Below are positions 39,114-54,799 of a DNA stretch of 64,000 bases, piece after piece. The notes beneath the pieces are model-generated. The model was not told the origin of the DNA. It was given only the letters and a program-made list of their open reading frames with translations, and searched no databases. Within the stretch, counting starts at the first letter, position 1. The number at the start of each line of letters is the position of its first letter. The DNA is taken from the NCBI GenBank assembly GCA_963812155.1, contig CAWETW010000002.1, positions 288,001-352,000 on the forward strand, read 5' to 3'. A program made the position numbers and the translations under genes. The DNA comes from Vulcanimicrobiota bacterium (GTDB lineage Bacteria; Vulcanimicrobiota; Vulcanimicrobiia; Vulcanimicrobiales; Vulcanimicrobiaceae).

Positions 39114-40280
39114 TCAATTCCTCGCCCCGTTCGATTCGCGCTTTTCGAGCGGCACGTACGGACCGGCCGGCGGTCCGTCGTAGGTTGCCTGCGGCCGAAT
39201 CAAACGATTGTCGGCGAGTTGCTCGAGCACGTGCGCCGTCCAGCCCGCGATGCGTCCGCACGCGAAGAGACAGGTGAACTCGTCGCCCGGGATGCCCAAA
39301 TCCGCCAGCACCGGCGCCGTATAGAAATCGACGTTGGCGTAGATGGTGTTGTCCGGTTTTTTCTCTTGCAGAACTTTGCGGCTGGCCTCTTCGAGCCGAT
39401 GCGCGATTTCGTACCAGGGGCTGTTGCCCTGCTGTTCCGAGAGCTTCTTTGCCATCGCTTCGAGATGACGGGCGCGCGGGTCGCGAACTTTGTATTCACG
39501 GTGGCCCATGCCCATGATGCGCTCGTTGCGTGCGAGCGCGTCGCGCACGTACTGTTCGGCGTTCTCGGGCGAACCGGCTTCCTTGAGCGCACGGAACGCG
39601 GCGGTGGCCGCGCCGCCGTGCAGATCGCCTTGCAGCGTCGCAAGCGCCGCCGTGATCGAAGCGTAGAGGTCGGCGCGCGTCGATGCGGTGACGCGACCCG
39701 AGAACGTCGACGCGTTGTACGAATGGTCGGCGAGGAGCACGAAATACGTATCCAGCGCGTCCGCCTCGACGCCGTTGGAGACTTTTCCGGAACGCATATA
39801 GAGGAAGTTGGCCGCCTGCGAGAGGTCGGTGCGCGGCTCGATCGGATCGAGTCCGCGACGAATACGATCCCACGCGGCCACGATCGTCGGCATCTTCGCG
39901 ATCAGTTCCACGGCGACGTGCACGTCGGAAACGTGTTCGCCGCGCGCGTCGACCGGCGAGAAGAGCGCAAGGCCGCTGACGATCGTGCGAAGGACGTCCA
40001 TCGGCCATGCCGTCTTCGGGACGTTCTGCATCGCGCTGATCAGCGGTTCGGGCAGCGAACGGCGCGAGCCTAACTCGCGTTTGAGGGCTTCAAGTTCGGC
40101 GCGGTTCGGCAGATGGCCGTACAGCAACAGGTGGACGACCTCTTCGAACGTCGCGCTCGGCGCGAGATCGTCGATATCGTAACCGCGATAGGTCAGGCGG
40201 CCGACGGCGCCTTCGACGTTGCTGAGTTGAGTGGTTCCTACGACGACGCCTTCGAGGCCACGGTCGACTACGGTTGACAA
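39114..40280 (-). CDS. Citrate (or 2-methylcitrate) synthase, TTG start
   Basis: GLEGVV, LTYRGY, DHSYNASTF, LHGGA, GMGHREYK..DPR, NVDFY; GGAGG upstream of the TTG at 40280. Confidence 0.92.
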   Translation of the reverse strand: MSTVVDRGLEGVVVGTTQLSNVEGAVGRLTYRGYDIDDLAPSATFEEVVHLLLYGHLPNRAELEALKRELGSRRSLPEPLISAMQNVPKTAWPMDVLRTIVSGLALFSPVDARGEHVSDVHVAVELIAKMPTIVAAWDRIRRGLDPIEPRTDLSQAANFLYMRSGKVSNGVEADALDTYFVLLADHSYNASTFSGRVTASTRADLYASITAALATLQGDLHGGAATAAFRALKEAGSPENAEQYVRDALARNERIMGMGHREYKVRDPRARHLEAMAKKLSEQQGNSPWYEIAHRLEEASRKVLQEKKPDNTIYANVDFYTAPVLADLGIPGDEFTCLFACGRIAGWTAHVLEQLADNRLIRPQATYDGPPAGPYVPLEKRESNGARN

Positions 40281-40424
40281 AGAATCCCTCCACAGAGAAG
40301 TTCCGCTGATGCGCGGGGTGGCTGAGTTTTCAGTCTCCATTATTAACCCCTCTCGGGGCCGGAACGTGCCACAAAGGCGGCTGGCGCAAAGACGTGGAGG
40401 GGCGCCGAAGCGAAGCAAGGCGGC

Positions 40425-40860
40425 ATGGAAAGCCTCGATCTCTCCGGCCGGCCGCCGCGCGGACCCCGCCTGCCGCTCGCCGGTCTCGATCTCTTCATGC
40501 TGGCGCGTACCGTCGATAAGGTTCGGGCAACGCTGCCGGGCGGCAGCCTCGGCACCTATCAAATTCCCGGCTTCAGCGCGCGTCTGTTGGAAAGGCTCGG
40601 CATTACCGAGGACGAGATGCGCGATGCCGTTGCGCGCGCGGACTCCGACGAGGCCGTCGCCGCATGGGTCCGCGAGCGCACCGACCAGGCGCGCTACCCG
40701 GAAATCAACGCGGCGATGGAGCAACGGACGATCGCGCGACCGGCTCGGCGATCCCGCCTTCGTAGCGAAATATCCGATCGCGCGCTCGCTTCCGCCCGAC
40801 ATGCCGTTGCTCGATTTTCTCTCGACCGACGACGCCGACATGTTTCCGCCGCGCCCATGA
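40425..40860 (+). CDS. DUF5069-like protein (apparent frameshift at about 40737)
   Basis: DLS..PPR.PR..LAG....ARTVDK.RA..G..G.Y; SDEAVAAW. The C-terminus ..LLDFLSTDDADMF lies in another frame. Confidence 0.6.
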
Positions 40861-41606
40861 CCGCGGAAATTATCGTTTCGGCGGATTCGGGCGTCGGCGA
40901 GATTCGCATCGATCGTCCCGCAAAAAAGAACGCACTCACTTCCGGCATGTACGCCGCCATGGCCGAAGCACTCGAAGCATTCGATCGCGACGACGCCATT
41001 CGCGTTGCGGTGATTCGCGGCGGAAACGATTTCACGGCGGGCAACGATCTCCGCGATTTCATCGATGCGTCCGCCGCCGGCGATCGCAAAGCGCTCGACG
41101 CGATCGTCGAGTTTCTCACGCACCTCGCAGATTTCTCGAAACCGCTGATCGCGGCCGTGCGCGGAAATGCCATCGGCGTCGGCACGACGATGCTGCTTCA
41201 TGCCGACGCCGTCGTCGCCGGAACGTCGGCGCGCTTTCGTGTGCCGTTCACGCAACTGGGCCTCGTCCCCGAAGCCGGCTCGTCGCTGCTCTTACCGCTG
41301 ACCGTCGGACGCATGCGCGCAGCGTGGATGCTGCTTGCGGGCGAGTTTTTCAGCGCGGGCGACGCGTTTGCAGCCGGCCTGATCACCAGCGTCGTCGCGG
41401 ACGACCGCGTCGAGGATACGGCCGCCGCAATGGCGGCCAAACTCGCGTCGCTTCCACCCGTCGCGGTACGCGAGACCAAACGTTTGATGCGCGATGCGAT
41501 CGCTCGAGACGTTCGCGAGCAAATGGATGCAGAGATCGCGGCCTTCGCCGAGCGCCTGACGTCCGAAGAGTTCCGAGCGTCCGTTAGCGCAGTGCTCGCG
41601 CGTTAG
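40857..41606 (+). CDS. Enoyl-CoA hydratase/isomerase family
   Basis: DRPAKKNALT, FTAGNDL, KPLIAAVRGNAIGVG, PFTQLGLVPEAGSS. Confidence 0.92.
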   Translation: MTAEIIVSADSGVGEIRIDRPAKKNALTSGMYAAMAEALEAFDRDDAIRVAVIRGGNDFTAGNDLRDFIDASAAGDRKALDAIVEFLTHLADFSKPLIAAVRGNAIGVGTTMLLHADAVVAGTSARFRVPFTQLGLVPEAGSSLLLPLTVGRMRAAWMLLAGEFFSAGDAFAAGLITSVVADDRVEDTAAAMAAKLASLPPVAVRETKRLMRDAIARDVREQMDAEIAAFAERLTSEEFRASVSAVLAR

Positions 41607-42544
41607 GCGACGGCGTCGCGCACGTCTCCTCGCGCCAGCGCGTACCCAACCAAACGGTCGACGAGCGCGTCGTACGTAATTCCGGCAGCGCCGCACGCAT
41701 CGGGCAATAGGCTCGTCGGGGTGAGTCCGGGCAGCGAATTGATCTCGAGAATGTACGGCCGGCGGTCTCCGCTGACGATGAAGTCGGTGCGCGAGTAGTC
41801 GCGCAGGCCGAGCAGCCGGTGCGTCGAGAGCGCGAGCATCTGCAGCCGCGCGGCGAGATCGTCGTCGATCTGCGCGGGAGCGACGTGCGTGCTGCCGCCG
41901 GGTTCGTACTTGGCATCGAACGAGTAGAATCCGTCGCGGTTGGCAACGATCTCGACGACCGGGAGCGCTTCTTCGCCCAGCACGCCGCACGTGAACTCGC
42001 GTCCTTCGACGTACTCTTCGGCGAGAATCTGCCCGAACGACTTGGATGCGGCCAGCATGGCCTCCGTCCACTGTTCGTGCGTGCGCACGATCGCAACGCC
42101 GGCCGACGAACCTTCGAAGCGCGGCTTGACCACGAGCGGAAGATCGAGCGACCCGGGAAGCAGCGGCAGCGTGCCGCCGCTCAGATCGAACATATCCCAA
42201 GCCGCGGTCGGCAGTCCCTCGGCCGCCAACAGTTTCTTCGTGAGGTGCTTGTCCATCGCGAGCGACGACGCTTCGACCTCGCTTCCGGTGTACGGAACGC
42301 CGGCATATTCGAGCAGTGCTTGGATGTGGCCGTCTTCACCGCCCGGCCCGTGCAGCGCGTTGAAGACGACGTCGGGACGCATCTCGCGCACCGCCTCGAA
42401 GAACCGGTCGTCGTAGTCGAGCGAAGCGGCATCGTAGCCGAGCGCGCGCAGCGCCCGCATCACGCCTTCACCGCTGAGCATCGAGATCTCGCGTTCGGCA
42501 CTGCTGCCGCCCATGACGACGACGATCTTTGACGTTCGTTTCAT
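41603..42544 (-). CDS. ddl: D-alanine--D-alanine ligase
   Basis: MGGSSAEREIS..SG, NALHG.GGEDG, MDK, KP..EGSS.G, FYSFDAKY, LEINSLPG.T. Confidence 0.96.
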   Translation of the reverse strand: MKRTSKIVVVMGGSSAEREISMLSGEGVMRALRALGYDAASLDYDDRFFEAVREMRPDVVFNALHGPGGEDGHIQALLEYAGVPYTGSEVEASSLAMDKHLTKKLLAAEGLPTAAWDMFDLSGGTLPLLPGSLDLPLVVKPRFEGSSAGVAIVRTHEQWTEAMLAASKSFGQILAEEYVEGREFTCGVLGEEALPVVEIVANRDGFYSFDAKYEPGGSTHVAPAQIDDDLAARLQMLALSTHRLLGLRDYSRTDFIVSGDRRPYILEINSLPGLTPTSLLPDACGAAGITYDALVDRLVGYALARGDVRDAVA

Positions 42545-43494
42545 GCGTCGATGAAGACCCCGACCAAATGCACTTCGAGTTGCAACTCGACCCCGAACCG
42601 TTCGTACACGGCGGAGCGCACGCGCGCGAGCAGCGTCGCGACGTCTTTGGCGCTCGCGCCGCCGACGTTGTTGATGAAGTTCGCGTGCAGCGTCGAGACT
42701 TCCGCGCCGCCTTCGCGCCACCCCTTGGCGCCGGCGGCTTCGATGAGCCGGGCCGCCTTGTCGCCCTCGGGGTTACGAAAGCACGAGCCGGCGTTGGGCA
42801 GGGCGATCGGCTGCGTGTCCTTGCGCCGGACGAGGCGCGCCTGCATCTCCTCGCGGACGGCGCTTGGGTCGTGCCGCGCGAACGCCAGCGTCACGCGCGA
42901 AACGATCGCGTCGCGCGCGAGCGTCGAATGGCGGTAGAAATACTGCAGCGTCACCGGGTGCGCCTCCGGCTTCGCGGGCGACTGCACCCACACGTCGCGA
43001 ACGAAATCGCCGATCTCGCGGTCGGTGCCGGCGTTCATACGCAGCGAGCCGCCGACCGTTCCCGGGATTCCCGAGAGCGAACCGATGCCCGCGGCGCCGG
43101 CGGTCGCGGCCTTTGCCGTCACGGCCGCCATGTTCGCCGACGCGCCCGCCTCGACAACGACCGCGCCGTTTTCGACGCCGACCTCGATTCCGGCAAAATC
43201 GCCGCCGAGACGAATCGCGACGCCGCGCAGGCCGCCGTCGCCGATCAGCATGTTGCTGCCGCTGCCGATCGCCATCCACGGTATCTTGCGTTTGAAGCAC
43301 CAGCGCATCAACGCCTCGAGTTCACCCTCACGGTGTGCGACCACGAACGCGTCGGCCGGACCGCCGATTTTCCAGGAGGTGTGTGGCGCGAGCGGCTCGT
43401 CGAAGGCGGCCCGGCCGGCGAAAATCTCGACCAGCGCCGCGCGATCGCGATCGGTCAGCAGGGAACGCGTCGCTTGTTCGGTGGTCAGACTCAC
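42541..43494 (-). CDS. murB: UDP-N-acetylenolpyruvoylglucosamine reductase
   Basis: TSWKIGGPA, IGSGSNML, GIPGTVGG..MNAG, QP..PNAGSCFRNP, HANFI.N, LEV. Confidence 0.95.
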   Translation of the reverse strand: MSLTTEQATRSLLTDRDRAALVEIFAGRAAFDEPLAPHTSWKIGGPADAFVVAHREGELEALMRWCFKRKIPWMAIGSGSNMLIGDGGLRGVAIRLGGDFAGIEVGVENGAVVVEAGASANMAAVTAKAATAGAAGIGSLSGIPGTVGGSLRMNAGTDREIGDFVRDVWVQSPAKPEAHPVTLQYFYRHSTLARDAIVSRVTLAFARHDPSAVREEMQARLVRRKDTQPIALPNAGSCFRNPEGDKAARLIEAAGAKGWREGGAEVSTLHANFINNVGGASAKDVATLLARVRSAVYERFGVELQLEVHLVGVFIDA

Positions 43495-44868
43495 GCCCGC
43501 ACCGTATCGGAGCGCGCGAGGCGCTCCGCAAGCCGCGCCGCGACGTCGGTCACGTTCCCGGCGCCCAAGAACAGGACGAGCGCGCCCGGCGGCGTTTCCT
43601 CAAAAATCCGTTCCTCCAAATCGTCGACCTGCGTAACGTAGCGCACCTCCGAACCGGCGGCCTCCAGTGGTTCGCCGATCGAGCGTTCGCTGACGCCGGG
43701 AATCGCCGGTTCGGAAGCCGCGTACACCGGCGTGAGATAGACGCGGTCCGCGCCGTGGAGCGCGTCTGCGAAATCGCGCGCGAGAAAAGCGGTGCGCGTG
43801 TAGCGGTGCGGCTGAAAGGCGACGATCAGCGGACCCGAATGAAAGTCGCGCGCCGCCGCGATCGTCGCGCGCACGGCCGTCGGATGGTGCGCGTAATCGT
43901 CCACGACCGTCATGCGCTCGCCCGACACCAGCACGTCGAAGCGGCGCCGCACGCCGCGAAAGCCGTGCAGCGCAGCCGCAATGGCATCGAACGGAAGGTC
44001 GAGTTCGAGCCCGACCGCGACGGCGGCAAGCGCGTTCAGCACGTTGATTTCGCCCGGAACGCGCAAACGAACGTGCCTAGCGTCGCGTCGCGCGCAATCG
44101 CGTCGAAACTCGCGTGTCCGCCTTCGTAACGAACGTTCGCGGCTCGCACGTCCGACGGCGCGACGCCGAACGTGACGGTTCGCGCACGCAACGCATGTTC
44201 GCTCAGCGACGCGCTGCGCGCGTTGTCGATTCCCAGGATCGCCGCGCCTCCGGACGGCAACCGCTCGAGGAATTCCTCGAACGCGCGTACGAGGTGCGGA
44301 AGGTCGTCGTCGCTGGCGAGATGGTCGTTTTCGACGTTCGTGACGACCGCGATCGACGGCTCGAGCAGTGCGAACGAACCGTCGGACTCGTCGGCTTCGG
44401 TCACGAACCACGGCGACGTTCCGTCGTGGGCGTTTGCATCGAGCGTGCGGTCGATGCCGCCCAAGACCAAGCTTGCGTCGATGCCTCCGGCGCGCAAAAC
44501 GGCGTGCGTCATCGCGGTCGTCGTCGTCTTTCCGTGCGTGCCGCAGATCGCAATGCCTCGCCTTCCCGCAATGAGTTGCGCGAGCATCTCGCCGCGGTGG
44601 AGCACCGTCGTGCCGTTTCGGCGCGCGGCGACGCACTCGGGGTTACTGCGATCGATTGCCGAACTGACGACGACCGCGCGTGCACCGCGCACGTTTTCGC
44701 CGCGATGGCCGATCGTCACCGACGCGCCTTCGCGGCGCAGCTCTTCGACCAGCGGCGTTGCCTTCACGTCGGATCCGGTCACGCTTCGCCGCGCGCCAGC
44801 AGGATGCGCGCGATAGCGCTCATGCCGATGCCGCCGATGCCGACGAAGTGGACGGGCTGCTTGGTCAC
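43491..44868 (-). CDS. murC: UDP-N-acetylmuramate--L-alanine ligase, with two apparent 1-nt deletions (about 44783 and 44075)
   Basis: HFVGIGGIGMS, VTGSD, GTHGKTTTT, EADESDGSF and DDYAHHPT..FQPHRYTR are spread over three frames. Confidence 0.9.
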
Positions 44869-45986
44869 CGCTCGTCTTTTCTCGCCGCAAGCCAATCGAC
44901 CCGGGCGAGAATGGTCGCAAGCGGATCTCCGGTTTGCAGGCGGCCCGCCGCGGCGCGCAACGCGCCGAGCGCCGGCTCCTCCGACGCGCGCGCAAACGCG
45001 TGTAGCGCGCCCGCGGGAAGGTCGCCGTCTGCGACGACCACGGCCGCGCCGCTTTCGGCGAAGCGCTGGGCGTTGGTCGTCTGATGATCGTCGGCTGCAA
45101 ACGGATACGGTACGAGAATGGCCGGCTTTCCGACGGCCGTAAGTTCGGCGAGCGTCGAAGCGCCGGCTCTGGCGAGCACGAGGTCGGCTGCGGCGTACGC
45201 CGCGGCCGGATCCTCCAGATATTTCACCACCGCCGCACGGCCGGCGGGCATCGCGGTCACGACGCGTTCGAAATCGTTTTCACCCGTAACGAGCAGCAGT
45301 TGCCAGCCGGGCGCCAACGCGCGCGCGATCGCGATGACGGCGTCGTTGACGCTGCGCGCGCCTTGGCTGCCGCCCATCGCCAGGAGCGTTTTTCGCGCGG
45401 GATCGAGCCCGAGCGATGCGATCGCACCGTCGCGCGACGGCAACGCGCGCAGACTCGCGCGAACGGGAACGCCGGTGCGTACGTACTTGCCGGCGAAACG
45501 CGAGTCCGCGTCGCCGAACGCGCCCCAGACTTCGTCGACGAACGGCGCGAGCATCCGGTTCGTGAGCCCCGGCTTAGCGTTCGGTTCGAGCAGCGCGATG
45601 GCGGCGCGATGCAGTCGCGTCCAGCGCAGCGCGCGCGCCGCGAGCACGGCCGGGAAGCAGACGTATCCTCCAGTGGCGATGACGGCGTCGGGACGATCGC
45701 GCAACAGCAGCGCGAGGCTTTGCAGCGTTCCCACGGCGTTCGCCCACGCCGTTCGGAGGAGATCGAACGAGAGCCGTCGCGTCAGCGCACGAGACGCAAT
45801 CGTGTGCAGGGCGTAACCGGCGCCCGGCACGATGCGTGCTTCGAGCCGGTCGGCGCTGCCGACGAACGCTGCGTGCGCGCCGCGCGCGCGCAGCGCATCG
45901 GCAACCGCAATCGCCGGATAGAGATGTCCGCCCGTGCCTCCGCCGGCAAAGAGGATGCGGCGACCGCCGCCGCCACTAACGTCCAC
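44865..45986 (-). CDS. murG: Lipid II GlcNAc transferase
   Basis: AGGGTGGHLYP, TGGYV, EPNAKPGLTN, GVPVR, GGSQGA, RAGAST, DHQ..NA. Confidence 0.96.
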   Translation of the reverse strand: MDVSGGGGRRILFAGGGTGGHLYPAIAVADALRARGAHAAFVGSADRLEARIVPGAGYALHTIASRALTRRLSFDLLRTAWANAVGTLQSLALLLRDRPDAVIATGGYVCFPAVLAARALRWTRLHRAAIALLEPNAKPGLTNRMLAPFVDEVWGAFGDADSRFAGKYVRTGVPVRASLRALPSRDGAIASLGLDPARKTLLAMGGSQGARSVNDAVIAIARALAPGWQLLLVTGENDFERVVTAMPAGRAAVVKYLEDPAAAYAAADLVLARAGASTLAELTAVGKPAILVPYPFAADDHQTTNAQRFAESGAAVVVADGDLPAGALHAFARASEEPALGALRAAAGRLQTGDPLATILARVDWLAARKDER

Positions 45987-47163
45987 TGAGACGGCGGTGG
46001 CGCCCGACGTTGGCGATCAAAGCCACTGCGACGAGGTTGACGATGAGCGAACTGCCCCCAAAGGAGACGAACGGCAGCGGCACGCCGGTCACCGGCCACG
46101 ACGACGTCACGACGCCGATGTTGATGAAGGCTTGGATCGCGATCATCGCGCCGCAACCGATTGCGAGGAAATACCCGAACCGGTCGGGCGCCGCCAACGC
46201 GATTCGCACGGCGCGATAGGCGAATGCCACGAAGAGCGCCACGACGACGAACGCGCCGACCAGTCCGAGCTCCTCGCCCAGAACCGAGAAGATGAAATCG
46301 GTGTACTGTTCGGGCAGATAGAAGAACTTCGCGCGCGACGCGCCCAGCCCCATGCCGAAGAAGCCGCCGCTGCCGAGCGCGAGCAGCGATTGCACGATGT
46401 GGAAGCCGGTGTTCTGCGGATCCTTCCACGGATTCAGAAACGCGAAGACGCGCGCCCTCCGGTAGGGACTCGCAATGACGCTGACGATGGCAAGCGGCGC
46501 CGTGACCGCCAGAATCGCGACGAGATGAAAGACGCGAGCACCGGCGGCGAAGAACATCGTGAAGGCGACGAACACCAGCAGCGACGCCGTTCCCATGTCG
46601 GGTTCTTTGAGGATGAGCACCGCCATCAGCAGCACCGGAACGCACAGCGGAAAGAGTCCGCGCGTCAACGACGTGATGCGATCGCCGCGATTGGAAAGAA
46701 TCGCCGCGAGATAGACGACCAGCGCGAGTTTCGCGAACTCGGACGGCTCGAGACTCAGCGAGGAGAAACCGATCCACCGGCGTCCACCGTTGACGCCGAC
46801 GCCGACGTGCGGCACGAAGACGAGCAGCAGCCCGGCGAGCGCTGCCACGAGCAGATACGGCGCGGCACGCTTGAGGCGCGCAAGATCCATGCGATACACC
46901 GCAAACGCGGCGATCGACCCGACGAGCAGCCATATCAGTTGGCGTTTGAGATAGTACGCGATGTCGCCGTGCTCGGCGTACGCCGTCGCGCTCGATGCCG
47001 AGAAGACCATGACCAGACCGATGCCTACGAGCGTCGCGACGACGGCGAACAGTACCGCGTCGGGCGCAGCCGTAACAAAGGAACGCACCGGCACGCGGTC
47101 GGCGGCATCGCGCCGCAGTGCGGTGCGGCCGCCCTTCGCGGCACGCGCCGACGCGTTAGGCAC
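45976..47163 (-). CDS. ftsW: SEDS peptidoglycan polymerase FtsW (start uncertain)
   Basis: GLVMVFSAS, NGGRRWI, EPSEFAK, EPDMGT, YLPEQYTDFIFS..GEELG, GVPLPFVSFGGSS. Confidence 0.95.
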   Translation of the reverse strand: MPNASARAAKGGRTALRRDAADRVPVRSFVTAAPDAVLFAVVATLVGIGLVMVFSASSATAYAEHGDIAYYLKRQLIWLLVGSIAAFAVYRMDLARLKRAAPYLLVAALAGLLLVFVPHVGVGVNGGRRWIGFSSLSLEPSEFAKLALVVYLAAILSNRGDRITSLTRGLFPLCVPVLLMAVLILKEPDMGTASLLVFVAFTMFFAAGARVFHLVAILAVTAPLAIVSVIASPYRRARVFAFLNPWKDPQNTGFHIVQSLLALGSGGFFGMGLGASRAKFFYLPEQYTDFIFSVLGEELGLVGAFVVVALFVAFAYRAVRIALAAPDRFGYFLAIGCGAMIAIQAFINIGVVTSSWPVTGVPLPFVSFGGSSLIVNLVAVALIANVGRHRRLSGR

Positions 47164-48559
47164 CGGCCGGCTCCGGCAACGCGGCGACCGCCGCGGCAAA
47201 ACGCTCCCCGCGGTCCTCGGCCGACGCGAACATGTCGAACGATGCGCATGCCGGGGAAAGCAGCACGACGTCGCCCGCTACGCTGAGATCGCGCGCGCGC
47301 CGCACCGCTTCGTCCATCGAAGCCGCTCGCACGCCGGTCACGCCGCGGCTCGCGCTCAGAACGTCGCCGGCAGCTTCGCCGATCGCCACGACCGCTTTCG
47401 CGCGGCGGCGAATCGCGGCGCCGAGTTCGCTGAAACCCGTTCCCTTTGCACGACCGCCCGCGATCAGGACGATCGGACGATCGTAACTGTAGAGCGCCGC
47501 AACGCTCGCGTGGGGATTGGTCGATTTGGAGTCGTCGACGAACAGAACGCCGTCGATTTCCGCGACCGGTTGGAGCCGGTGCGGCATCGGCGCAAACGTG
47601 GCGATTGCCGAACGCAATGCGGCCGGTTCGCAGCCCGCTGCCAGCGACGCCAGCAACGCGGCCATCGCGTTACGCACGTTATGATCGCCCGGCAGTGCGA
47701 TCTCTTCGCGCGGAACGATGGCTCGGGGACGCGGATCGCCGGCAACCGGCGCGTACGTCAGCACTCCGCCGCGCAAGAACATTGCCGCGCGCTCTTCCTG
47801 CGCGCCCAGCGTGAACCAGAGTTGGCGCGCCTGCGCGCGAGCGTTACCGCATCCCCAGTGCAGTTGCGCGATGCGCGGGTCGTCGAGATTGCCGACGAAC
47901 CAATCGGTGAGACTCTGATTGGCGAAGATGCGATACTTCGCTTCCGCATATTCGTCCATCGAATGGTAGCGATCGAGATGATCCGGTGCGACGTTGAGGA
48001 GCACCGCGATACGCGGCTTGAACGATCGAATCGTTTCGAGTTGGAACGACGACACCTCGGCGACCACCCAATCGCGCTCGCTCGCGCCGAGGACTTCCTT
48101 GATCAGCGGATTGCCGATGTTGCCGCCGACGCGAACGCCGAAACCACACTCGCGCAGCAAGTGGGCGATGAGCGCGGTCGTCGTCGACTTGCCCTTCGTT
48201 CCGGTCACGGCCACGATCGGCGCGCGGCATAAACGGTAGGCGAGTTCGATTTCGCCGATCACCGGGACGTTGGCCGCGTTGATCGCTCGTACCACCGGCG
48301 ACGTGGGAGGAACGCCCGGCGACAACACCGCCGACGTCAGGCCGCTCGCAATCGTCGCGACGCCGGACGGCGCGACGAAACGCGCGCCCGTTCCCTCGAT
48401 CGAGGCAATCGCGCGAGTCAGCTCCGCCCAAGGCTTCTCATCGGTTGCGCAGACGTCGACGCCGCGCTCGCGCAATACGTCGACGCAGGCAAGGCCGCTG
48501 CGGCCCAGTCCGATGACGAGCACGCGATCTTGCGGACCGAACGCGAACATCTCGTTCAT
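47156..48559 (-). CDS. murD: UDP-MurNAc-L-Ala--D-glutamate ligase
   Basis: GLGRSG, SPGVP, TGTKGKSTT, GGNIG, EVSSFQL, PDHLDRY, DDSKSTN, LLSPACASFD. Confidence 0.97.
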   Translation of the reverse strand: MNEMFAFGPQDRVLVIGLGRSGLACVDVLRERGVDVCATDEKPWAELTRAIASIEGTGARFVAPSGVATIASGLTSAVLSPGVPPTSPVVRAINAANVPVIGEIELAYRLCRAPIVAVTGTKGKSTTTALIAHLLRECGFGVRVGGNIGNPLIKEVLGASERDWVVAEVSSFQLETIRSFKPRIAVLLNVAPDHLDRYHSMDEYAEAKYRIFANQSLTDWFVGNLDDPRIAQLHWGCGNARAQARQLWFTLGAQEERAAMFLRGGVLTYAPVAGDPRPRAIVPREEIALPGDHNVRNAMAALLASLAAGCEPAALRSAIATFAPMPHRLQPVAEIDGVLFVDDSKSTNPHASVAALYSYDRPIVLIAGGRAKGTGFSELGAAIRRRAKAVVAIGEAAGDVLSASRGVTGVRAASMDEAVRRARDLSVAGDVVLLSPACASFDMFASAEDRGERFAAAVAALPEPAGA

Positions 48560-49530
48560 CGCACCACCGCCAGCCCTACGAGCGAACACACGAGCGAACC
48601 GAGCCAAAAACGCGCCGTGACTTTCGTCTCGGGCCAGCCGCTCAACTCGAAGTGATGGTGCAGCGGACTCATCTTGAAGACGCGCCGGCCGTTGGTGAGC
48701 TTGAAATACGCGACCTGCACGATGACGGACAGCGTTTCGGCGACGAACACGCCGCCGACGAGCAAGAGCAGCAGCATTTCGCCGCTGAGGATGGCGATGC
48801 CCGAGAGCAGCGCGCCCAGTGCGAGCGACCCCGTATCGCCCATGAAGAGTTTGGCCGGATGCCGGTTATAGAAAAGGAAGCCCGCGCAGGCGCCCGCGCC
48901 CGTCGCCGCGGCGATCGCCGCTGCCGGCACGAGTGCCTGCGCCGCGATCGGGACGAAGACCGCCAGCGGCGGCAAGATCGTGCCTGCCGCCAGGCCGTCG
49001 AGTCCGTCGGTCAGATTCACGGCGTGAATCGTTCCGGTAATGGCCGCGATGCCGAGCAACAGCCAGAGCCAGTGCGGCGCGACGAGCGAGTACGAGCCGG
49101 CGTGAAAGAGCACGTCGCGCGGAAAGAAGCTCAACGACGCGTCGATCGCGCGCAGGAAGATTACGGCGACCAGTGCGGTGGCGAGAAACTTCGTGCGGGC
49201 TCGCAATCCGCGGTTGCGCCCCGACCGAATTCCCAGAACGTCGTCGATCGCTCCGACGGCGGCGCAGAGCAGCACCAGCACTCCAAGCGTCTGCACGAGC
49301 GGCAGGCGCGCCGTCAGCATCATTGCGGCGAATGCCGCGACGAAGACGAGGCCGCCCATCGTCGGCGTTCCGGTCTTGCGCTGATGGGTTTCGGGCGCGT
49401 CTTCGTAGGCGTGCTGGAAGACCTCGAGCCGGCGCAGGAGCGGCAGGAGCAGCGCTCCGGCAACGAGTGCGACGACCGCACCGAACACGATCCAGAACGG
49501 CGTTTGCGCAAAAATGACGCGCGCGTTCAC
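48556..49530 (-). CDS. mraY: Phospho-N-acetylmuramoyl-pentapeptide transferase
   Basis: KTGTPTMGG, DD, AVNLTDGLDGL, FMGDTGSL, ETLSVIVQ, MSPLHHHFELSGW.E. Confidence 0.96.
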   Translation of the reverse strand: MNARVIFAQTPFWIVFGAVVALVAGALLLPLLRRLEVFQHAYEDAPETHQRKTGTPTMGGLVFVAAFAAMMLTARLPLVQTLGVLVLLCAAVGAIDDVLGIRSGRNRGLRARTKFLATALVAVIFLRAIDASLSFFPRDVLFHAGSYSLVAPHWLWLLLGIAAITGTIHAVNLTDGLDGLAAGTILPPLAVFVPIAAQALVPAAAIAAATGAGACAGFLFYNRHPAKLFMGDTGSLALGALLSGIAILSGEMLLLLLVGGVFVAETLSVIVQVAYFKLTNGRRVFKMSPLHHHFELSGWPETKVTARFWLGSLVCSLVGLAVVR

Positions 49531-50243
49531 GATGCGGCGCTTTCGAAGAGCGGATTCGGTCCGCGACCACGCCATTTCAGCACGACCAGGGGCGTCTGCT
49601 CGTCGCCGTTGCCGTGCGGATTGTCGAGCAACGCCCGTTCGACCAGCGCGGCGTCCACGCCGGCCGACGCGCCGAGAACCTTTGCTTTTTCGAGATCGTT
49701 GACGTCGACGACCGCGCAGCCGGAACCGGTCCGTTCGAACGCTGACTGCGCGAACGCGGCCGGCTCACGCGGCGCAAAGACGATTGCGCGTTCGTAGGGC
49801 GGCATCGTTCCGGTATACCCGTCGATCGCAGCCAGCGCTCCGCCCATCACTTCATAAAAAGCGCCGCGGCGGCCGAACGCGCGGCCGAAGACGTGTGCGA
49901 GCGTTGCGTAGAGCACTCTGGCACGTCCGGCTTTGTCGATAACGAGCTGCATCGATTCCGGCTGGCTCACCGTCGCCATGGCGTCGGCCCGGCGGCAGAG
50001 CGCATACGCGAGTGCCGATGGCCGCACGTGCTCGGCGGCGACGAACTCGGACTGCGCGATCGCCAATGCCGTCTCGGAAACGGCGATCACGTCGCCGGGT
50101 CTTGCAATGCCCGCCACTGCCTCCGCGACGATGCGCACCAGATCGTCGCCCGGGTTCACGAGCGCCGTGCGCACCGGTATGGCGACGATGCCTTCGGGGA
50201 CGCCTTCGCGTGCGACGGCGAGCGGTCGCGTTGCGACGCTCAC
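49527..50243 (-). CDS. CofE-like (F420-0:gamma-glutamyl ligase family) protein embedded in the dcw cluster
   Basis: IPVRT.LV.PGDDL, PGDVIAVSETALAIAQ, AIDG..G, VVDVND, DNP.G..DEQTPLVV resemble the CofE-like fold; GTGA overlaps with both murF and mraY. Confidence 0.75.
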   Translation of the reverse strand: MSVATRPLAVAREGVPEGIVAIPVRTALVNPGDDLVRIVAEAVAGIARPGDVIAVSETALAIAQSEFVAAEHVRPSALAYALCRRADAMATVSQPESMQLVIDKAGRARVLYATLAHVFGRAFGRRGAFYEVMGGALAAIDGYTGTMPPYERAIVFAPREPAAFAQSAFERTGSGCAVVDVNDLEKAKVLGASAGVDAALVERALLDNPHGNGDEQTPLVVLKWRGRGPNPLFESAAS

Positions 50244-51616
50244 GAGCGCAACTCCGTCAGCACTTCCTCCAGCCGATACTTTCGGGCGCCCTTCAGCAGC
50301 ACGACGTCGCCGCTGCGGACGTTGTCGCGCAGCCAGCGCGCGGCGTCGTGGTTGGACGAAACGCGCACCACGTCGCTGCAGCCTTCGCGCCGAGCGGCGC
50401 GCGCCAGCACCTCGGCATACTCGCCGCCGACGAGCAGCACGCCCGCGCGGCCGGCGGCATGCGCGCCGACGCGCTCGTGCAGCGGCACCGCCTCCGTACC
50501 GAGCTCCGCCATGCTGGCAAGCACGGCGATCGTACGCGACGCCTCTTCGTTCGCCAGCGCGTCCAGGGCCGCGACCATGCCGCCCGGGCTCGCGTTGTAC
50601 GCGTCGTAAATCATTCGCCATCCGCCCGGCATCTCGATCGACTCGTAGCGGCCGGGCGGCAAACGCAGCGCCGGAATCACGTCGCTCATCGCTGCGAGGT
50701 CGGCACCCAGTTCCACCGCTCCGGCCAGTGCCGCTGCGAGATTGGCGGCGTTGTGCGCTCCGGGGAACGCGATGCGAACGTGCCGGTCGAATATGCGGCG
50801 TCCGCCGGCGACGTCGATGAGGTGCGAACGCGCGAGCAGCGCGGTGACGCGCCCGAATCCGCCGGCGTCCGCGCCGGGATCGTCGTCGGCAAGAAACCAG
50901 TGCGGCGAGGCCGGCAACGTCTCGGCCCGAGCGAGCGAAACGGCGTCGCGCGCATTGAGCACCGCCTGCGCGCCGGCGCCGAAGAGCGCCCATTTCATCT
51001 CCGCGATGCGCTCGCGAGACCCGGCAATCTCGAGGTGCGCGTCGCCGACGTTGGTGAGGATCCCGACGTGCGGTCGGGCGATCGCCACGAGTTCGGCGAC
51101 GTCGCCATAACGGCGCGCACCCATTTCGACGACGATCGCGTCGTGCGCTTCGTTGGAGGCGCCCAGCAGCAGTCTGCTTACGCCGATTTCGTTGTTCTCG
51201 TTGGCCGGCGCCACGGCAATTCGTTCGCCGTAATGCGCCGTCAACAACTGCGCGGCGAAGACTTTGCAGGTCGTCTTGCCGGCGCTCCCCGTGATCGCGA
51301 GGATGCGTCCTTCGAATCGTTCGCGGGCCAGCGCGGCCAGCGCCATGTAGGCGCGCAGCGTATCCTCGACGACCATCGTAGCGACGCCGTCGCAGCGCGC
51401 ATCGGCGCGATCGACGACGATCATGTGGGCACCGCGCGCAACGGCGTCTGCGACGAAGTCGTGTCCGTCGAAACGCTCGCCGTGCAGCGCCAGGAACGTG
51501 TCGCCCGCATCGGTGCTGCGCGTGTCGGTCGAGACGCGTACCCGCGCCGGCGCGAACTGCGGATCGAGCAGGGTCGCCGACGTTGCCGCGACCGCGTCGT
51601 CGAGCGGCAGGTTCAT
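50240..51616 (-). CDS. murF: UDP-MurNAc-tripeptide--D-Ala-D-Ala ligase
   Basis: STDTR, GERFDGH, ITGSAGKTT, NENNEIGV, EMG, AHLE, DAYNASP, M.ELG, LLKGAR. Confidence 0.96.
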   Translation of the reverse strand: MNLPLDDAVAATSATLLDPQFAPARVRVSTDTRSTDAGDTFLALHGERFDGHDFVADAVARGAHMIVVDRADARCDGVATMVVEDTLRAYMALAALARERFEGRILAITGSAGKTTCKVFAAQLLTAHYGERIAVAPANENNEIGVSRLLLGASNEAHDAIVVEMGARRYGDVAELVAIARPHVGILTNVGDAHLEIAGSRERIAEMKWALFGAGAQAVLNARDAVSLARAETLPASPHWFLADDDPGADAGGFGRVTALLARSHLIDVAGGRRIFDRHVRIAFPGAHNAANLAAALAGAVELGADLAAMSDVIPALRLPPGRYESIEMPGGWRMIYDAYNASPGGMVAALDALANEEASRTIAVLASMAELGTEAVPLHERVGAHAAGRAGVLLVGGEYAEVLARAARREGCSDVVRVSSNHDAARWLRDNVRSGDVVLLKGARKYRLEEVLTELRS

Positions 51617-53073
51617 CGCAGCACTCCGCGCATGCGCAGCGCGCGCCGCGCCGTTTCGGCGTCGTCGAATTCGAACACGTCGTTGCCGACGATTTGATGC
51701 GTCTCGTGGCCCTTCCCTGCGATCAGCACGACGTCGCCCGGCTCCGCTTCGAGAACGGCGCGTTCGATGGCTCGCGCGCGATCGAGTTCGACGACGTGTG
51801 GATGCGTCCCGATGCCCGCCACGATCTCATCGGCAATCACTTGGGGATCTTCGGTGCGAGGGTTGTCGTTCGTCACGTACAGCCGGCCGGCCAAGCGTGC
51901 GGCCGTCGCTCCCATCTCGCGCCGCTTCCCGCGGTCGCGATTTCCACCGCAACCGAACACGACCGATAGCGAACCGCCGGTCGTCTCGCGCAGTGCCGAG
52001 AGCGCCTGATGCAGCGCATCGGGCGTATGCGCGTAGTCGACGACCACGTCAACGCCGTCTTGGCACAACCGCTGCATGCGTCCGGGAACGCGTTCGAGCT
52101 GCAGCAGCCCGCGCGCGCTGTCGGCGTCGCGGGCGCCGAGCGCGCGCGCCGCACCGATGGCGGCCAGCGCGTTGGAGACGTTGAAGCGCCCGGGAAAGCG
52201 CACGACGAAGCGCGTGCCGTCGAGCGAAAAGGCAACCGCTTCCGGCGAGGCTTCGACGCCGGTCGCGACGAGCTCGGCGCCCTCGCGTTCGCCGTACGTG
52301 GTGACGCGCACTCCGGCCGCCGCGAGTTCGCGCGCCCACTGCGCGCCGAGAGGGTCGCCGGCATTGAGCACCGCTTCCGCCGATATGTCGAAGAGGCGCC
52401 GCTTCGCTGCCGCGTACGCCTCGCGCGTTTGATGAAAGTCGAGATGGTCGCGGGTCACGTTGGTGAGCACGCCGACGCGAAAGCGCACGTCGTCTACGCG
52501 GCCGAGCGCCAGCGCGTGGGAACTGACCTCCATCGCGACCGCACGCGCGCCGTCGTCGCGCATTCCCGCGAGCAGTGCGTGCAGTTCGGGAGGCAACGGC
52601 GTCGTATGGGCCAGCGCCCGATCCTGCGCGCCGAACGAAGCGCCGACCGTGCCGATCGTTCCGGACGGTATTCCGGCTTCTTCAAGAATCCCGCGAAGCA
52701 TGTGCACGGTCGTCGTCTTACCGTTGGTTCCGGTAACGCCCACGACGTCGAGGGCATGCGACGGATCCCCGTAAAACGCCGCGGCGAGCGTTGAAAGCGC
52801 GCGTCGCGTGTCGCTCACCGCGATCGCCACCGTTTCGGAAGCCACGGGCACCGCGGCGTCGACGACCACCGCGGCCGCACCCGCCGCAACCGCTTGTGCG
52901 ACGAACGCGTGGCCGTCGGAGTGCTCGCCGCGCAACGCGACGAAGAGTGCGCCCGGTACGATTCGGCGCGAGTCGCTTTCGATCGCACAAACTGCACGCG
53001 ATGCGTCGCCGCGCACGACGGTTTCAGGCGGAAGTCGCGCGATCAGCGCACGCAGATCGACGGTTTCAGCCAT
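51613..53073 (-). CDS. murE: UDP-MurNAc-dipeptide--meso-DAP ligase
   Basis: DSR, TGTNGKTT, TTP, MEVSSHAL, TNVTRDHLDFH, DYAHTPDA, DNPR (DAP-type motif), AGKGHE. Confidence 0.97.
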   Translation of the reverse strand: MAETVDLRALIARLPPETVVRGDASRAVCAIESDSRRIVPGALFVALRGEHSDGHAFVAQAVAAGAAAVVVDAAVPVASETVAIAVSDTRRALSTLAAAFYGDPSHALDVVGVTGTNGKTTTVHMLRGILEEAGIPSGTIGTVGASFGAQDRALAHTTPLPPELHALLAGMRDDGARAVAMEVSSHALALGRVDDVRFRVGVLTNVTRDHLDFHQTREAYAAAKRRLFDISAEAVLNAGDPLGAQWARELAAAGVRVTTYGEREGAELVATGVEASPEAVAFSLDGTRFVVRFPGRFNVSNALAAIGAARALGARDADSARGLLQLERVPGRMQRLCQDGVDVVVDYAHTPDALHQALSALRETTGGSLSVVFGCGGNRDRGKRREMGATAARLAGRLYVTNDNPRTEDPQVIADEIVAGIGTHPHVVELDRARAIERAVLEAEPGDVVLIAGKGHETHQIVGNDVFEFDDAETARRALRMRGVLR

Positions 53074-54799
53074 GGGGTCCAGCCGCCGGCAGGATTCCAG
53101 CATGCAGCATCGCCGCACGCGAAATCTCCGCAAACGCCGGGGCTGCGACCACGCTTCCGTAGTAGGATCCGATTGGGCGCTCGACCTTCACGTAAACGAG
53201 ATAGCGAGGATGCTCGTAAGGCACCATGCCGATAAAGGATGCGGCGTAGTATCCCGAGCGATATTCACCGTCGACGACCATCTCCGCGGTTCCGGTCTTA
53301 CCGGCGGTCGAGTATCCGGGAATTTGCGCGGTCGGATCGCCGGTTCCGTGTAACACGACCATCCGCAGAAAACCGCGCAACTCGCTTGCGGTGCGACGCG
53401 AGAAGACGCGGCGAACCACGTGGGGCGCAACGCTGTGCACGAGCTTGCCCTGCTGGTCGTAGACGGCCCGCACGATGTGCGGCTGCATCAGAAGGCCGCC
53501 GTTGGCGATCGCGCAGTAGTAACGGGCCATTGCAATCGGCGTAACCGAAACGCCTTGTCCGAACGACATCGTCGCCAGCGACGGCGCGCTCCAATCCCGC
53601 GGATTCGGAACGATGCCGGGATTCTCTCCGGGCAGTTCGATGCCGGTCGTGTCGCCGAAGCCGGCGCGCCGCTCCATTGCGTAAAAGGTTTTTGCTCCGA
53701 TCGACATGCCGACTTCGGCGGCTCCGACGTTATGCGAAAATTCGATGATTTGCCCCAGCGTCTCGCTTGCGCCGGTACCGGCCATGAAGCCGTCTTCCGC
53801 GTTGTGAATGATTCGCCCGCCGACTTCTAAACGATCGTGCGCCGGGAAACGCGTCGTCAACGATACTTTGTGCGAATCGAGCGCGGCGGCAGCCGTTAGG
53901 AGTTTGTAGGTCGAGCCGGGTTCGTACGCGTCCATCACCGCGCGGTTGCGCCGGTGGGCGTCGTCGTATTTCCAGAACCGGTTCGGATCGAAGGTCGGCG
54001 CATTGGCTAGAGCGAGCACTTCTCCGGTGTAGGGATCCATGACGATGGCGGTGCCGTCGAGCGCATGGTACGTCGTGACTTGCGTAGCGAGCGCACGCTC
54101 GGCGACGAACTGGATGTAGGAGTCGAGCGTCAACTCGATCGTCGAGCCGGGGTCGGCGGCCGTCACGACGCGCTCGCGGCCGAATGGAATCGGACGTCCG
54201 AACTCGTCGGTCTCGAGCATCACGCTGCCCGAGCGGCCGCGCAGCAGCGCGTCTTGCGAATACTCGATGCCGTCGAGGCCGTTTTCGTCGGTACCGACGA
54301 AGCCGAGCACCGTCGCAGCCAATCTGCCCGACGGGTCGACGCGCTGGCCCGTTTCTTCTTCCTTTAAAGCGATGCCGCCGATACCGAGCGCGCGCACCCG
54401 CTCGACCTCGTCGTGCGGCGCCTTGCGCGCAATCCACGCAAACCAGGAACGCTTGTCGTGAAGCTGCGCAACCGTAGCGGGATCGAGCTTCCCGAATATG
54501 CTTTGCAGTTTCGCGGCGGTCGCATCCGGATTGGCGAGATCGCGCGGCACCGCGTAGACGCTCTCGGAAGGGAGCGAACGCACCAGCACGCTGCCGTTGC
54601 GGTCGAGGATGCTGCCGCGGCGCGCAAAGACTTCAACCGCGTTGGAACGCTGCGCGAGGGCCTGGCGCGCGTACGAGGCGCCGTGAACCACTTGCACGTC
54701 GTAGAGCCGCCACGCGAGGTACGCGGCGGTGACCAGAAGCGCGTAAAAGACGAACTTGGCGCGAATCGGCGAGATGCGTGCGAAGGCTCGCTGATGCAC
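53066..54799 (-). CDS. ftsI: Class B penicillin-binding protein (FtsI/PBP3-like)
   Basis: RGSILDRNG, EPGSTYK (SxxK), SHN (SxN), KTGT, FGQG. Confidence 0.93.
   Translation of the reverse strand: MHQRAFARISPIRAKFVFYALLVTAAYLAWRLYDVQVVHGASYARQALAQRSNAVEVFARRGSILDRNGSVLVRSLPSESVYAVPRDLANPDATAAKLQSIFGKLDPATVAQLHDKRSWFAWIARKAPHDEVERVRALGIGGIALKEEETGQRVDPSGRLAATVLGFVGTDENGLDGIEYSQDALLRGRSGSVMLETDEFGRPIPFGRERVVTAADPGSTIELTLDSYIQFVAERALATQVTTYHALDGTAIVMDPYTGEVLALANAPTFDPNRFWKYDDAHRRNRAVMDAYEPGSTYKLLTAAAALDSHKVSLTTRFPAHDRLEVGGRIIHNAEDGFMAGTGASETLGQIIEFSHNVGAAEVGMSIGAKTFYAMERRAGFGDTTGIELPGENPGIVPNPRDWSAPSLATMSFGQGVSVTPIAMARYYCAIANGGLLMQPHIVRAVYDQQGKLVHSVAPHVVRRVFSRRTASELRGFLRMVVLHGTGDPTAQIPGYSTAGKTGTAEMVVDGEYRSGYYAASFIGMVPYEHPRYLVYVKVERPIGSYYGSVVAAPAFAEISRAAMLHAGILPAAGPHG

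What the first reader, a model, noticed from the sequence alone, without database searches (positions are those of the whole stretch)
49527..50243. CofE-like amide ligase locked into the dcw cluster between murF and mraY: candidate new peptidoglycan-precursor modifying enzyme
Seen: a ~238-aa ORF whose GTG overlaps the murF stop (50240-50243) and whose stop overlaps the mraY GTG (49527-49530). It is therefore coupled on both sides inside a normally uninterrupted murF-mraY pair. Its motifs resemble CofE/F420-0:gamma-glutamyl ligases, and no other F420 genes are in the window. Known: CofE uses GTP to add glutamate to the lactyl carboxylate of F420-0 and then to a Glu gamma-carboxylate. UDP-MurNAc-peptides carry a lactyl group plus D-Glu and meso-DAP carboxylates (murE here has the DAP-type DNPR motif). 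Inference: this is a repurposed ligase that adds an amino acid or amine to the stem peptide or lipid I/II, giving a lineage-specific peptidoglycan chemotype.
Basis: partly seen in the sequence, partly recalled or inferred. Interest (0 to 1): 0.82.

Follow-up and report, generated by a model that had tools for sequence, protein, structure and literature searches.

The report
Candidate missing peptidoglycan-polyamine ligase
A gene wedged between two cell-wall genes encodes a distant relative of a cofactor-making enzyme, and its family likely attaches a polyamine such as putrescine or cadaverine to the cell-wall building block, a long-known modification for which we found no gene in print, and it is also kept by mosses, ferns and algae whose chloroplasts are thought to retain a bacterial wall.

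Summary
Observation confirmed. The 238-aa ORF has the CofE fold (Z 14.4) but is not CofE: TIGR01916 gives 28 bits against a cut-off of 181, and cofD is missing in 82 of 82 genomes of the class, all of which carry the gene. murF-X-mraY holds in 36 of 36 loci. The family is not lineage-specific. It occurs in 120 of 121 Negativicutes (often after murI), 92 of 251 Bacillota, cyanobacteria, and as nuclear genes with transit-peptide-like ends in bryophytes, ferns, a conifer, charophytes and Micromonas pusilla, with no named angiosperm hit. In the motif subfamily of this gene, 18 of 44 Bacillota loci have a Lys/Orn/Arg decarboxylase within 1.5 kb (0 of 43 in the other subfamily) and 28 of 44 a muramoyl amidase. 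A peptidoglycan role is likely (about 0.85). Best mechanism (0.47): ligation of a diamine to the stem D-glutamate of lipid I/II, the modification known from Selenomonas, Veillonella and Cyanophora. Against: no exclusion with MurT, and this clade is distant from the Negativicutes one. The scan noted this gene before in another genome (e1-3090157).

The parts
49527..50243 (-). Gene X, 238-aa CofE-fold protein; candidate lipid I/II amide (diamine) ligase
50252..50255 (-). GGAG ribosome-binding-site-like motif 8 nt before the X start, inside the end of murF
   Evidence: read from sequence
50240..50243 (-). GTGA overlap: X start and murF stop
   Evidence: same 4-nt overlap in 34 of 36 class loci
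49527..49530 (-). GTGA overlap: mraY start and X stop
   Evidence: same pattern in 29 of 36 loci
50073..50075 (-). Glu57, conserved in 95 of 106 rows; aligns to the Ser-Thr stretch of the CofE N-terminal region (nucleotide-binding role recalled)
49863..49925 (-). Residues 107-127: basic, hydrophobic helix (net charge at least +2 in 106 of 106 rows); inferred membrane or lipid-substrate contact
49821..49823 (-). Asp141 (105 of 106 rows), aligned with the Asp of the CofE NAGxD motif; inferred metal ligand
49695..49706 (-). DxND motif, residues 180-183 (D180 105 of 106, N182 102, D183 99); aligned with the CofE DT/DS motif; inferred metal ligands
49590..49622 (-). NPxGNxxEQTP motif, residues 208-218; N versus Q at 212 separates the two subfamilies
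50240..51616 (-). murF
   Evidence: TIGR01143 323.5 bits, cut-off 288.6
48556..49530 (-). mraY
   Evidence: TIGR00445 254.1 bits, cut-off 192
51613..53133 (-). murE, DAP type (DNPR motif)
47156..48559 (-). murD
   Evidence: TIGR01087 418 bits

Best explanation
The gene encodes a CofE-fold protein, co-translated with murF and mraY, that likely works as a nucleotide- and metal-dependent ligase which would attach a diamine (putrescine, cadaverine or agmatine) to the free alpha-carboxylate of D-glutamate in lipid I or lipid II. Shown: the fold, the conserved acidic motifs, the operon position, the family's range, neighbours and fusions. Inferred from CofE chemistry: phosphoryl transfer from an NTP to the carboxylate, then attack by the amine. 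Inferred from neighbours: the donor is a decarboxylation product of Lys, Orn or Arg, and the site is D-Glu. Inferred from the basic helix and from the membrane-anchored partner domain of relatives: it acts at the inner membrane face, after MraY. Its Negativicutes orthologue would be the enzyme that makes the cadaverine/putrescine peptidoglycan bound by OmpM. The nucleotide is open, since the CofE lysine of SKAEGR is Ile in 87 of 106 rows. A peptidoglycan role of any kind is about 0.85; the confidence given is for the diamine-on-D-Glu version in this organism.
For: Fold: Foldseek E 2.6e-9, TM 0.54; VIA Z 14.4, 185 aligned, rmsd 3.5, next Z 4.6. CofE forms an amide through an acyl-phosphate, like MurD (PMC10861534). 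dcw position in 36 of 36 class loci; MurF fusions (P0126; L050). Negativicutes, where the modification is known on the D-Glu alpha-carboxyl (PMC10628300, PMC5020339): 120 of 121 genomes, one match each except one gene split over two contigs, including S. ruminantium, Veillonella and A. lipolyticus. Glutamate racemase lies within 2 kb upstream in 45 of 71 loci with room. Bacillota GN subfamily, within 1.5 kb: decarboxylase 18 of 44 (8 PLP type, 10 pyruvoyl type, in several tree clades; 7 PLP genes directly downstream with gaps of -25 to +17 nt), amidase 28, flippase-like 7; GQ subfamily: decarboxylase 0 of 43. The window's class has a PF01276 decarboxylase in 59 of 61 and MurT in 0 of 61 genomes. 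Nuclear homologues occur in lineages reported to keep plastid peptidoglycan genes, with no named angiosperm among the best 120 in two searches (papers). Cyanophora adds its putrescine derivative at the membrane stage, best on lipid II (cited in PMC3266927).
Against: No activity or muropeptide data for any member. No mutual exclusion with MurT, which amidates the same carboxyl: 28 of 92 X-positive versus 58 of 159 X-negative Bacillota. The window's clade is long-branched and not sister to the Negativicutes, cyanobacterial or other-class proteins; midpoint rooting puts it beside the GQ subfamily (0.91). It lacks the membrane partner Y, and a Y profile finds nothing in the genome. No decarboxylase lies beside X in this class. 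SLH domains are found in only 19 of 31 class genomes and not in this one. X is not tied to an outer membrane: 25 of 52 LpxC-positive genomes, and 67 X-positive genomes without LpxC. In cyanobacteria the tether is reported to use pyruvylated polymer, not cadaverine. No glaucophyte appeared in my lists, which show only the best 120-150. murI-rph is an old gene cluster (recalled), so that adjacency may be positional. Kin are not independent in these counts.
Confidence: 0.47

Rival explanations
1. It is a peptidoglycan-precursor amide ligase with another donor or site, for example an amino acid or ammonia-derived amine on the meso-DAP carboxylate, or a dicarboxylic cross-bridge residue that a fused AsnB then amidates.
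For: All peptidoglycan links above. AsnB-X fusions in 6 of the 60 longer representatives scanned, one of them lacking the synthase domain hit. Co-occurrence with MurT, and murT-gatD about 2-3 kb from X in 2 loci. The window's clade sits apart from the decarboxylase-linked clades.
Against: The 5 AsnB fusions placed on the tree all fall in the GQ subfamily, while the window's protein has the GN motif. This does not explain two unrelated decarboxylase families as neighbours.
Confidence: 0.28
2. It is a recycling or remodelling ligase that re-joins a peptide or amine to the lactyl carboxylate of MurNAc after an amidase has removed the stem, like CofE acting on the lactyl group of F420-0.
For: An amidase is the commonest Bacillota neighbour (28 of 44 GN loci, fusions included) and is fused in 6 representatives. 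CofE activates a lactyl carboxylate.
Against: MurC is present in the window. Near-universal presence in three lineages and coupling between murF and mraY suit a biosynthetic step better. No amidase lies beside X in this class or among the recurrent Negativicutes neighbours.
Confidence: 0.1
3. It is a non-catalytic or regulatory partner of the MurF/MraY/MurG complex that kept the CofE fold.
For: The CofE lysine is not kept; TPR fusions in about 11 representatives; tight translational coupling.
Against: D141, D180, N182, D183, N208 and G211 are at least 93% conserved across 106 rows of 27-100% identity, as expected of an active site.
Confidence: 0.08
4. It glutamylates a cofactor (F420, folate or another pterin), and the dcw position is incidental.
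For: NCBI names members coenzyme F420-0:L-glutamate ligase. FTHFS or pabB lie beside 4 of 43 GQ loci. TIGR04132 gives a marginal hit (E 0.03). A CofE-like folate ligase in Chlamydia is recalled.
Against: cofD in 0 of 82 class genomes. F420-positive relatives keep a separate true CofE in a cofD-cofC-cofE operon. folC passes its cut-off in 31 of 31 class genomes and 5 of 5 Negativicutes. The folate neighbours belong to the other subfamily.
Confidence: 0.05

Closest known systems
CofE / FbiB N-terminal domain, F420-0:gamma-glutamyl ligase (A. fulgidus; PDB 2PHN, 2G9I, 7ULD)
   Same: Same fold (Z 14.4, TM 0.54-0.56); aligned N-terminal region and acidic motifs; predicted to use the same acyl-phosphate amide chemistry.
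   Different: 18-24% identity; far below the TIGR01916 cut-off; conserved lysine replaced; residues 95-138 are helices with a basic face in the model, where CofE is described as gripping F420 with a hairpin and F92 (mapping inferred); no F420 pathway; cell-wall gene context.
Peptidoglycan polyamine (cadaverine/putrescine) modification of Negativicutes and N-acetylputrescine modification of Cyanophora cyanelles
   Same: An amide on the D-Glu alpha-carboxyl made at the lipid stage; the family is in 120 of 121 Negativicutes, next to murI.
   Different: No gene for it was found in my searches, so there is no sequence to compare. The name lipid intermediate:diamine transferase and its ATP use are recalled. 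Presence in Cyanophora was not seen.
MurT-GatD lipid II isoglutaminyl synthase
   Same: Amidates the same D-Glu carboxyl on lipid II with a nucleotide (PMC3266927).
   Different: Mur-ligase fold with a glutaminase partner and ammonia as donor; not found in 61 class genomes; co-occurs with X in 28 of 92 Bacillota.
TIGR04132 putative folate gamma-glutamate ligase (CofE-like)
   Same: A CofE-fold protein proposed to act outside F420 synthesis.
   Different: 13.7 bits against a cut-off of 350; folC is present in all genomes tested.

Membership tests
CofE-fold superfamily (PF01996) | Pfam score above gathering cut-off | tested here: met
   46.8 bits vs 25, residues 24-107 only
CofE-fold superfamily (PF01996) | CofE fold over most of the chain | tested here: met
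   Z 14.4, 185 aligned, rmsd 3.5, model range 18-235; hhalign probability 97.6 to true CofE
CofE equivalog (TIGR01916) | Score above equivalog cut-off | tested here: not met
   27.7 vs 180.65; true CofE of relatives scores 252 and 261
CofE equivalog (TIGR01916) | Co-occurrence with the F420 pathway (cofC, cofD, cofG) | tested here: not met
   cofD in 0 of 82 class genomes and below cut-off in 5 of 5 Negativicutes
CofE equivalog (TIGR01916) | Conserved Lys of the SKAEGR motif | tested here: not met
   Ile in 87 of 106 rows; its GTP-binding role is recalled
CofE equivalog (TIGR01916) | GTP-dependent glutamylation of F420-0 | not testable with these tools
   needs an assay
Folate gamma-glutamate ligase (TIGR04132) | Score above cut-off; fills a folC gap | tested here: not met
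   13.7 vs 350; folC in 31 of 31 and 5 of 5
Peptidoglycan diamine ligase (orphan activity) | Present throughout lineages with polyamine peptidoglycan | tested here: met
   120 of 121 Negativicutes; glaucophytes not seen and not properly tested
Peptidoglycan diamine ligase (orphan activity) | Membrane-associated, acting at the lipid stage | tested here: inconclusive
   TM partner adjacent in 79 of 80 Negativicutes loci or fused elsewhere; absent in this genome; basic helix only
Peptidoglycan diamine ligase (orphan activity) | Excludes MurT-GatD, which uses the same carboxyl (my expectation, not an established rule) | tested here: not met
   28 of 92 vs 58 of 159 Bacillota; holds within this class (0 of 61) and the 8 Negativicutes of that sample
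Peptidoglycan diamine ligase (orphan activity) | Ligation of a diamine to D-Glu of lipid I/II | not testable with these tools
   needs an assay or a mutant

The most novel reading that the evidence does not exclude
This family, misnamed F420 ligase in databases, is the missing peptidoglycan-polyamine ligase. Polyamine-amidated stem peptides would then be an ancient Terrabacterial trait shared by Eremiobacterota, Negativicutes, many monoderm Bacillota and cyanobacteria, and the gene would be an overlooked component of the chloroplast peptidoglycan pathway, inherited from the cyanobacterial endosymbiont and lost with the plastid wall in flowering plants.
Probability: 0.4. Interest if true: 0.93.

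Novelty: new variant of a known kind. Interest (0 to 1): 0.85.

Why it matters
Polyamine-modified peptidoglycan anchors the outer membrane of Negativicutes through OmpM, and I found no gene for it in the papers searched. This gives one testable gene, plus a membrane partner, in the genetically tractable Veillonella parvula. The same family supplies a candidate for the stem modification that Dowson et al. 2022 predicted for moss chloroplast peptidoglycan but could not name, testable by knockout in Physcomitrium (XP_024398868) or Marchantia (MPTK1_2g07820). It also corrects an F420 annotation carried by many genomes that lack F420.

Tried and rejected
True CofE and folate ligase readings: rejected. 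Mobile origin: no match in plasmids, and two phage-labelled records look chromosomal; codon GC matches the neighbours. Link to having an outer membrane: not found. Mutual exclusion with MurT: not found. Partner Y in this genome: not found, best E 2.6. Fold of Y: low-confidence single-sequence model (pLDDT 61), best Z 5.9 among generic Ig-like sandwiches, uninformative. X-MraY 'fusions' among the representatives (P0196, P0228, P0235) are partial and treated as frameshift artefacts. The ESM Atlas returned only same-family clusters. The PF01996 control genomes cannot show absence of X, because a cyanobacterial member scores below the Pfam cut-off; absence from E. coli or B. subtilis was therefore not tested. 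No complex prediction or read mapping was run. Ten paper searches found no paper linking this family to peptidoglycan or naming the diamine ligase gene. The Kamio, Kojima and Pfanzagl originals were not held, and no supplements were opened, so a prior assignment in unseen papers or supplements is possible.

Full report
Observation. The ORF, both GTGA overlaps and the flanking genes are as described. Named homologues are Candidatus Eremiobacteraeota, Tumulicola, Cybelea and Baltobacteraceae, and the Atlas clusters are mostly Vulcanimicrobiota, so the window is from that phylum. The genome is 83.85% complete and has one PF01996 gene, this one.

Fold and motifs. An AlphaFold2 model from 106 sequences has pLDDT 92. 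Its only clear match is A. fulgidus CofE: Foldseek E 2.6e-9, TM 0.54; VIA Z 14.4 over 185 residues, next hit 4.6. D141, D180, N182, D183, N208 and G211 are nearly invariant. D141 aligns with the CofE NAGxD aspartate and D180 with the DT motif; that these bind metal in CofE is recalled. The CofE lysine of SKAEGR is Ile in 87 of 106 rows, so the nucleotide is open. Residues 95-138 are helical, and 107-127 carry a net charge of at least +2 in 106 of 106 rows (hydrophobic moment 0.34, modest). CofE holds F420 with a domain-swapped hairpin, F92 and R234, and makes an amide through an acyl-phosphate (PMC10861534, section 8 and passages). I infer that the chemistry is kept and the F420 site is remodelled.

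Not CofE. TIGR01916 gives 27.7 bits against 180.65. X is in 82 of 82 sampled genomes of the class and cofD in 0 of those 82. In the rest of the phylum cofD hits 38 of 69 genomes; the two such loci I read hold a cofD-cofC-cofE operon whose CofE passes the cut-off, and one of those genomes (G110) has X as well. folC passes its cut-off in 31 of 31 class genomes and 5 of 5 Negativicutes, so no folate gap needs filling.

Within the phylum. 149 of 151 genomes match, one only weakly (G072, 1.7e-7); 120 of 120 high-quality ones. murF-X-mraY holds in 36 of 36 class loci read (the 30 best hits, the window's own included, and 6 chosen from two other families), with one in-frame murF fusion and a MurF-X representative. 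In 14 of 14 loci read from the rest of the phylum the gene lies outside dcw and is 398-449 aa, with an N-terminal transmembrane helix and an unnamed domain, here called Y; one follows ddl directly. These tallies include the unpublished genomes G128 and G526; leaving them out changes no conclusion.

Negativicutes. 120 of 121 genomes of the class match. A separate Y gene lies directly upstream in 79 of 80 loci and is homologous to the fused domain of the long forms (E to 1e-25). Glutamate racemase lies within 2 kb upstream in 45 of the 71 loci with at least 2.5 kb of room (49 of 80 overall). These are the bacteria known to carry cadaverine or putrescine on the D-Glu alpha-carboxyl, needed for OmpM binding (passages of PMC10628300, PMC5020339, bioRxiv 2021.05.31.446380 and PMC12826042). 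None of the passages I saw names an enzyme.

Other Bacillota. In an even sample, 92 of 251 genomes have a full-length member and 8 more a weak partial hit. I read 87 of the 104 places with E below 1e-39, leaving out 8 Negativicutes and 9 others. A tree splits the family into an NPxGQ subfamily (support 1.00) and NPxGN forms, the window's type. Within 1.5 kb of X, GN loci have an amidase in 28 of 44 (fusions included), a SpoVB/MurJ-like flippase in 7, a PLP Orn/Lys/Arg decarboxylase in 8 and a pyruvoyl arginine decarboxylase in 10; 39 of 44 have one of the four. GQ loci have a decarboxylase in 0 of 43, an amidase in 1, a flippase in 5, FTHFS in 2 and pabB in 2. Seven PLP genes follow X on the same strand with gaps of -25 to +17 nt. 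The decarboxylase links lie in several clades, but kin are not independent and I ran no formal test. The decarboxylase substrates are family labels only.

Cyanobacteria and plants. Of 13 metagenome loci found with a cyanobacterial query (three look identical), 9 show X followed by a large GNAT-like gene and ruvX. The GNAT hits are weak (E 1e-5 to 6e-5, 4 scanned). mltG follows in L232 (scanned) and apparently in 5 more, and a class A PBP is divergent in one. Named eukaryotic members are Marchantia, Riccia, Calypogeia, Physcomitrium, Ceratodon, Sphagnum, Diphasiastrum, Adiantum, Ceratopteris, Cryptomeria, Klebsormidium, Mesotaenium, Closterium, Chlorokybus, Mesostigma, Micromonas pusilla CCMP1545, Pycnococcus, Pseudoscourfieldia, Pyramimonas and Tetraselmis. 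They group with cyanobacteria (support 0.97), and most of those inspected have Ser/Thr/Arg-rich, acid-poor N-termini in place of the transmembrane helix (read by eye). Two searches listed the best 120 down into cyanobacteria with no named angiosperm, Chlamydomonas, Ostreococcus or red alga. Unnamed land-plant clusters group with Cryptomeria (4) or ferns (4), and the members listed for the four seed-plant ones carry no NCBI record. This matches the reported retention of plastid peptidoglycan genes in bryophytes, lycophytes, gymnosperms, Klebsormidium and M. pusilla and their loss in most angiosperms (PMC10784329 parts 1-2 of 3; passages of PMC12681378 and PMC4815162). Caveats: only 8000 candidates were scored per search; M. 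commoda could hide in unnamed Micromonas-like clusters; the pathway status of Tetraselmis, Pyramimonas and Pycnococcus was not in the passages I saw; no glaucophyte appeared. Moss makes an ordinary UDP-MurNAc-pentapeptide, and the authors predict later modification by unknown enzymes (passages of PMC9434261); that fits a lipid-stage enzyme.

Mechanism. Four separate contexts tie the family to peptidoglycan: dcw here, murI in Negativicutes, amidase and flippase in Bacillota, and plastid-wall lineages. Two unrelated decarboxylase families point to a diamine donor. CofE chemistry needs a carboxylate and an amine, and the known orphan reaction is exactly that, at the membrane stage (PMC3266927 passage on Cyanophora). 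In this class a PF01276 decarboxylase is in 59 of 61 genomes and MurT in 0 of 61, and the one isolate has a thin peptidoglycan and an outer membrane (passages of PMC9758169). I put a peptidoglycan role at about 0.85 and diamine-on-D-Glu at 0.47.

Against. MurT is no rarer with X (28 of 92) than without (58 of 159). X is in only 25 of 52 LpxC-positive Bacillota and in 67 without LpxC. The window's clade (support 1.00) is long-branched and does not join the Y-associated group; it lacks Y; SLH is found in 19 of 31 class genomes and not in this one. Cyanobacteria are reported to tether through pyruvylated polymer. The donor or site may therefore differ between clades.

Novelty. The fold and the modification are known; the link between them was not found in ten searches of an open-access library (listings only, except the papers cited above). 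An earlier scan note on another genome (e1-3090157) reached the peptidoglycan reading; a word search for the polyamine reading found no note. I had formed the polyamine idea before that look-up (note). Verdict: real, not CofE, likely a new peptidoglycan-modifying ligase family; interest 0.85.

Noticed in passing
L079:5432-5989 (+); N-terminal 180 aa of L034-L047 long forms: Partner domain Y: transmembrane helix plus beta-sandwich with a conserved RxDxY(W) motif and no Pfam family. It is a separate gene in Negativicutes and 6 other Bacillota loci, fused in the other class of this phylum, cyanobacteria and plants, and not found in this genome.
   Followed up: partly
L068:6738-8438, L076:8318-9640: Hydantoinase/oxoprolinase and histone-deacetylase-family genes follow X in 33 and 32 of 80 Negativicutes loci; a hydantoinase also lies near X in 5 other Bacillota loci. 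Possibly acyl-polyamine metabolism.
   Followed up: no
P0202, P0240, P0253, P0258, P0263; L055:3955-6711: AsnB-X fusions in the NPxGQ subfamily suggest a second, different peptidoglycan step, such as ligation followed by amidation.
   Followed up: partly
L156:1507-3105, L161:481-2139, L176, L182, L184, L186, L187, L190: Amidase_3-X fusions, mostly followed directly by a SpoVB-like flippase; those read show no obvious signal peptide by eye, hinting at a cytoplasmic or spore-related amidase.
   Followed up: no
L232:6463-7800: A 415-448 aa GNAT-like gene follows X in 9 of 13 cyanobacterial loci; a candidate for acetylating the diamine, as in the N-acetylputrescine of cyanelles.
   Followed up: partly
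window 43491-45100 (-): murC appears split over two overlapping frames (44036-45100 and 43491-44636), read from translation only. The conserved decarboxylase at G000:C3:644258 is also in pieces. Both are probably assembly indels.
   Followed up: no
window 39114-42721 (-): By translation, ddl is followed by non-dcw genes including citrate synthase; ftsQ, ftsA and ftsZ do not follow. An alanine-racemase-like ORF ends at 38410 on the plus strand.
   Followed up: no
L088; L054, L055: L088 is labelled Patescibacteria but has the Negativicutes gene order, probably a binning error. The two phage-labelled records carry FTHFS or an AsnB-X fusion and look like bacterial chromosome pieces.
   Followed up: no
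G000 whole genome: PF02784 (Orn/DAP/Arg decarboxylase family) finds no candidate although it rings in 13 of 14 control genomes; incompleteness or a missed first look is possible.
   Followed up: no
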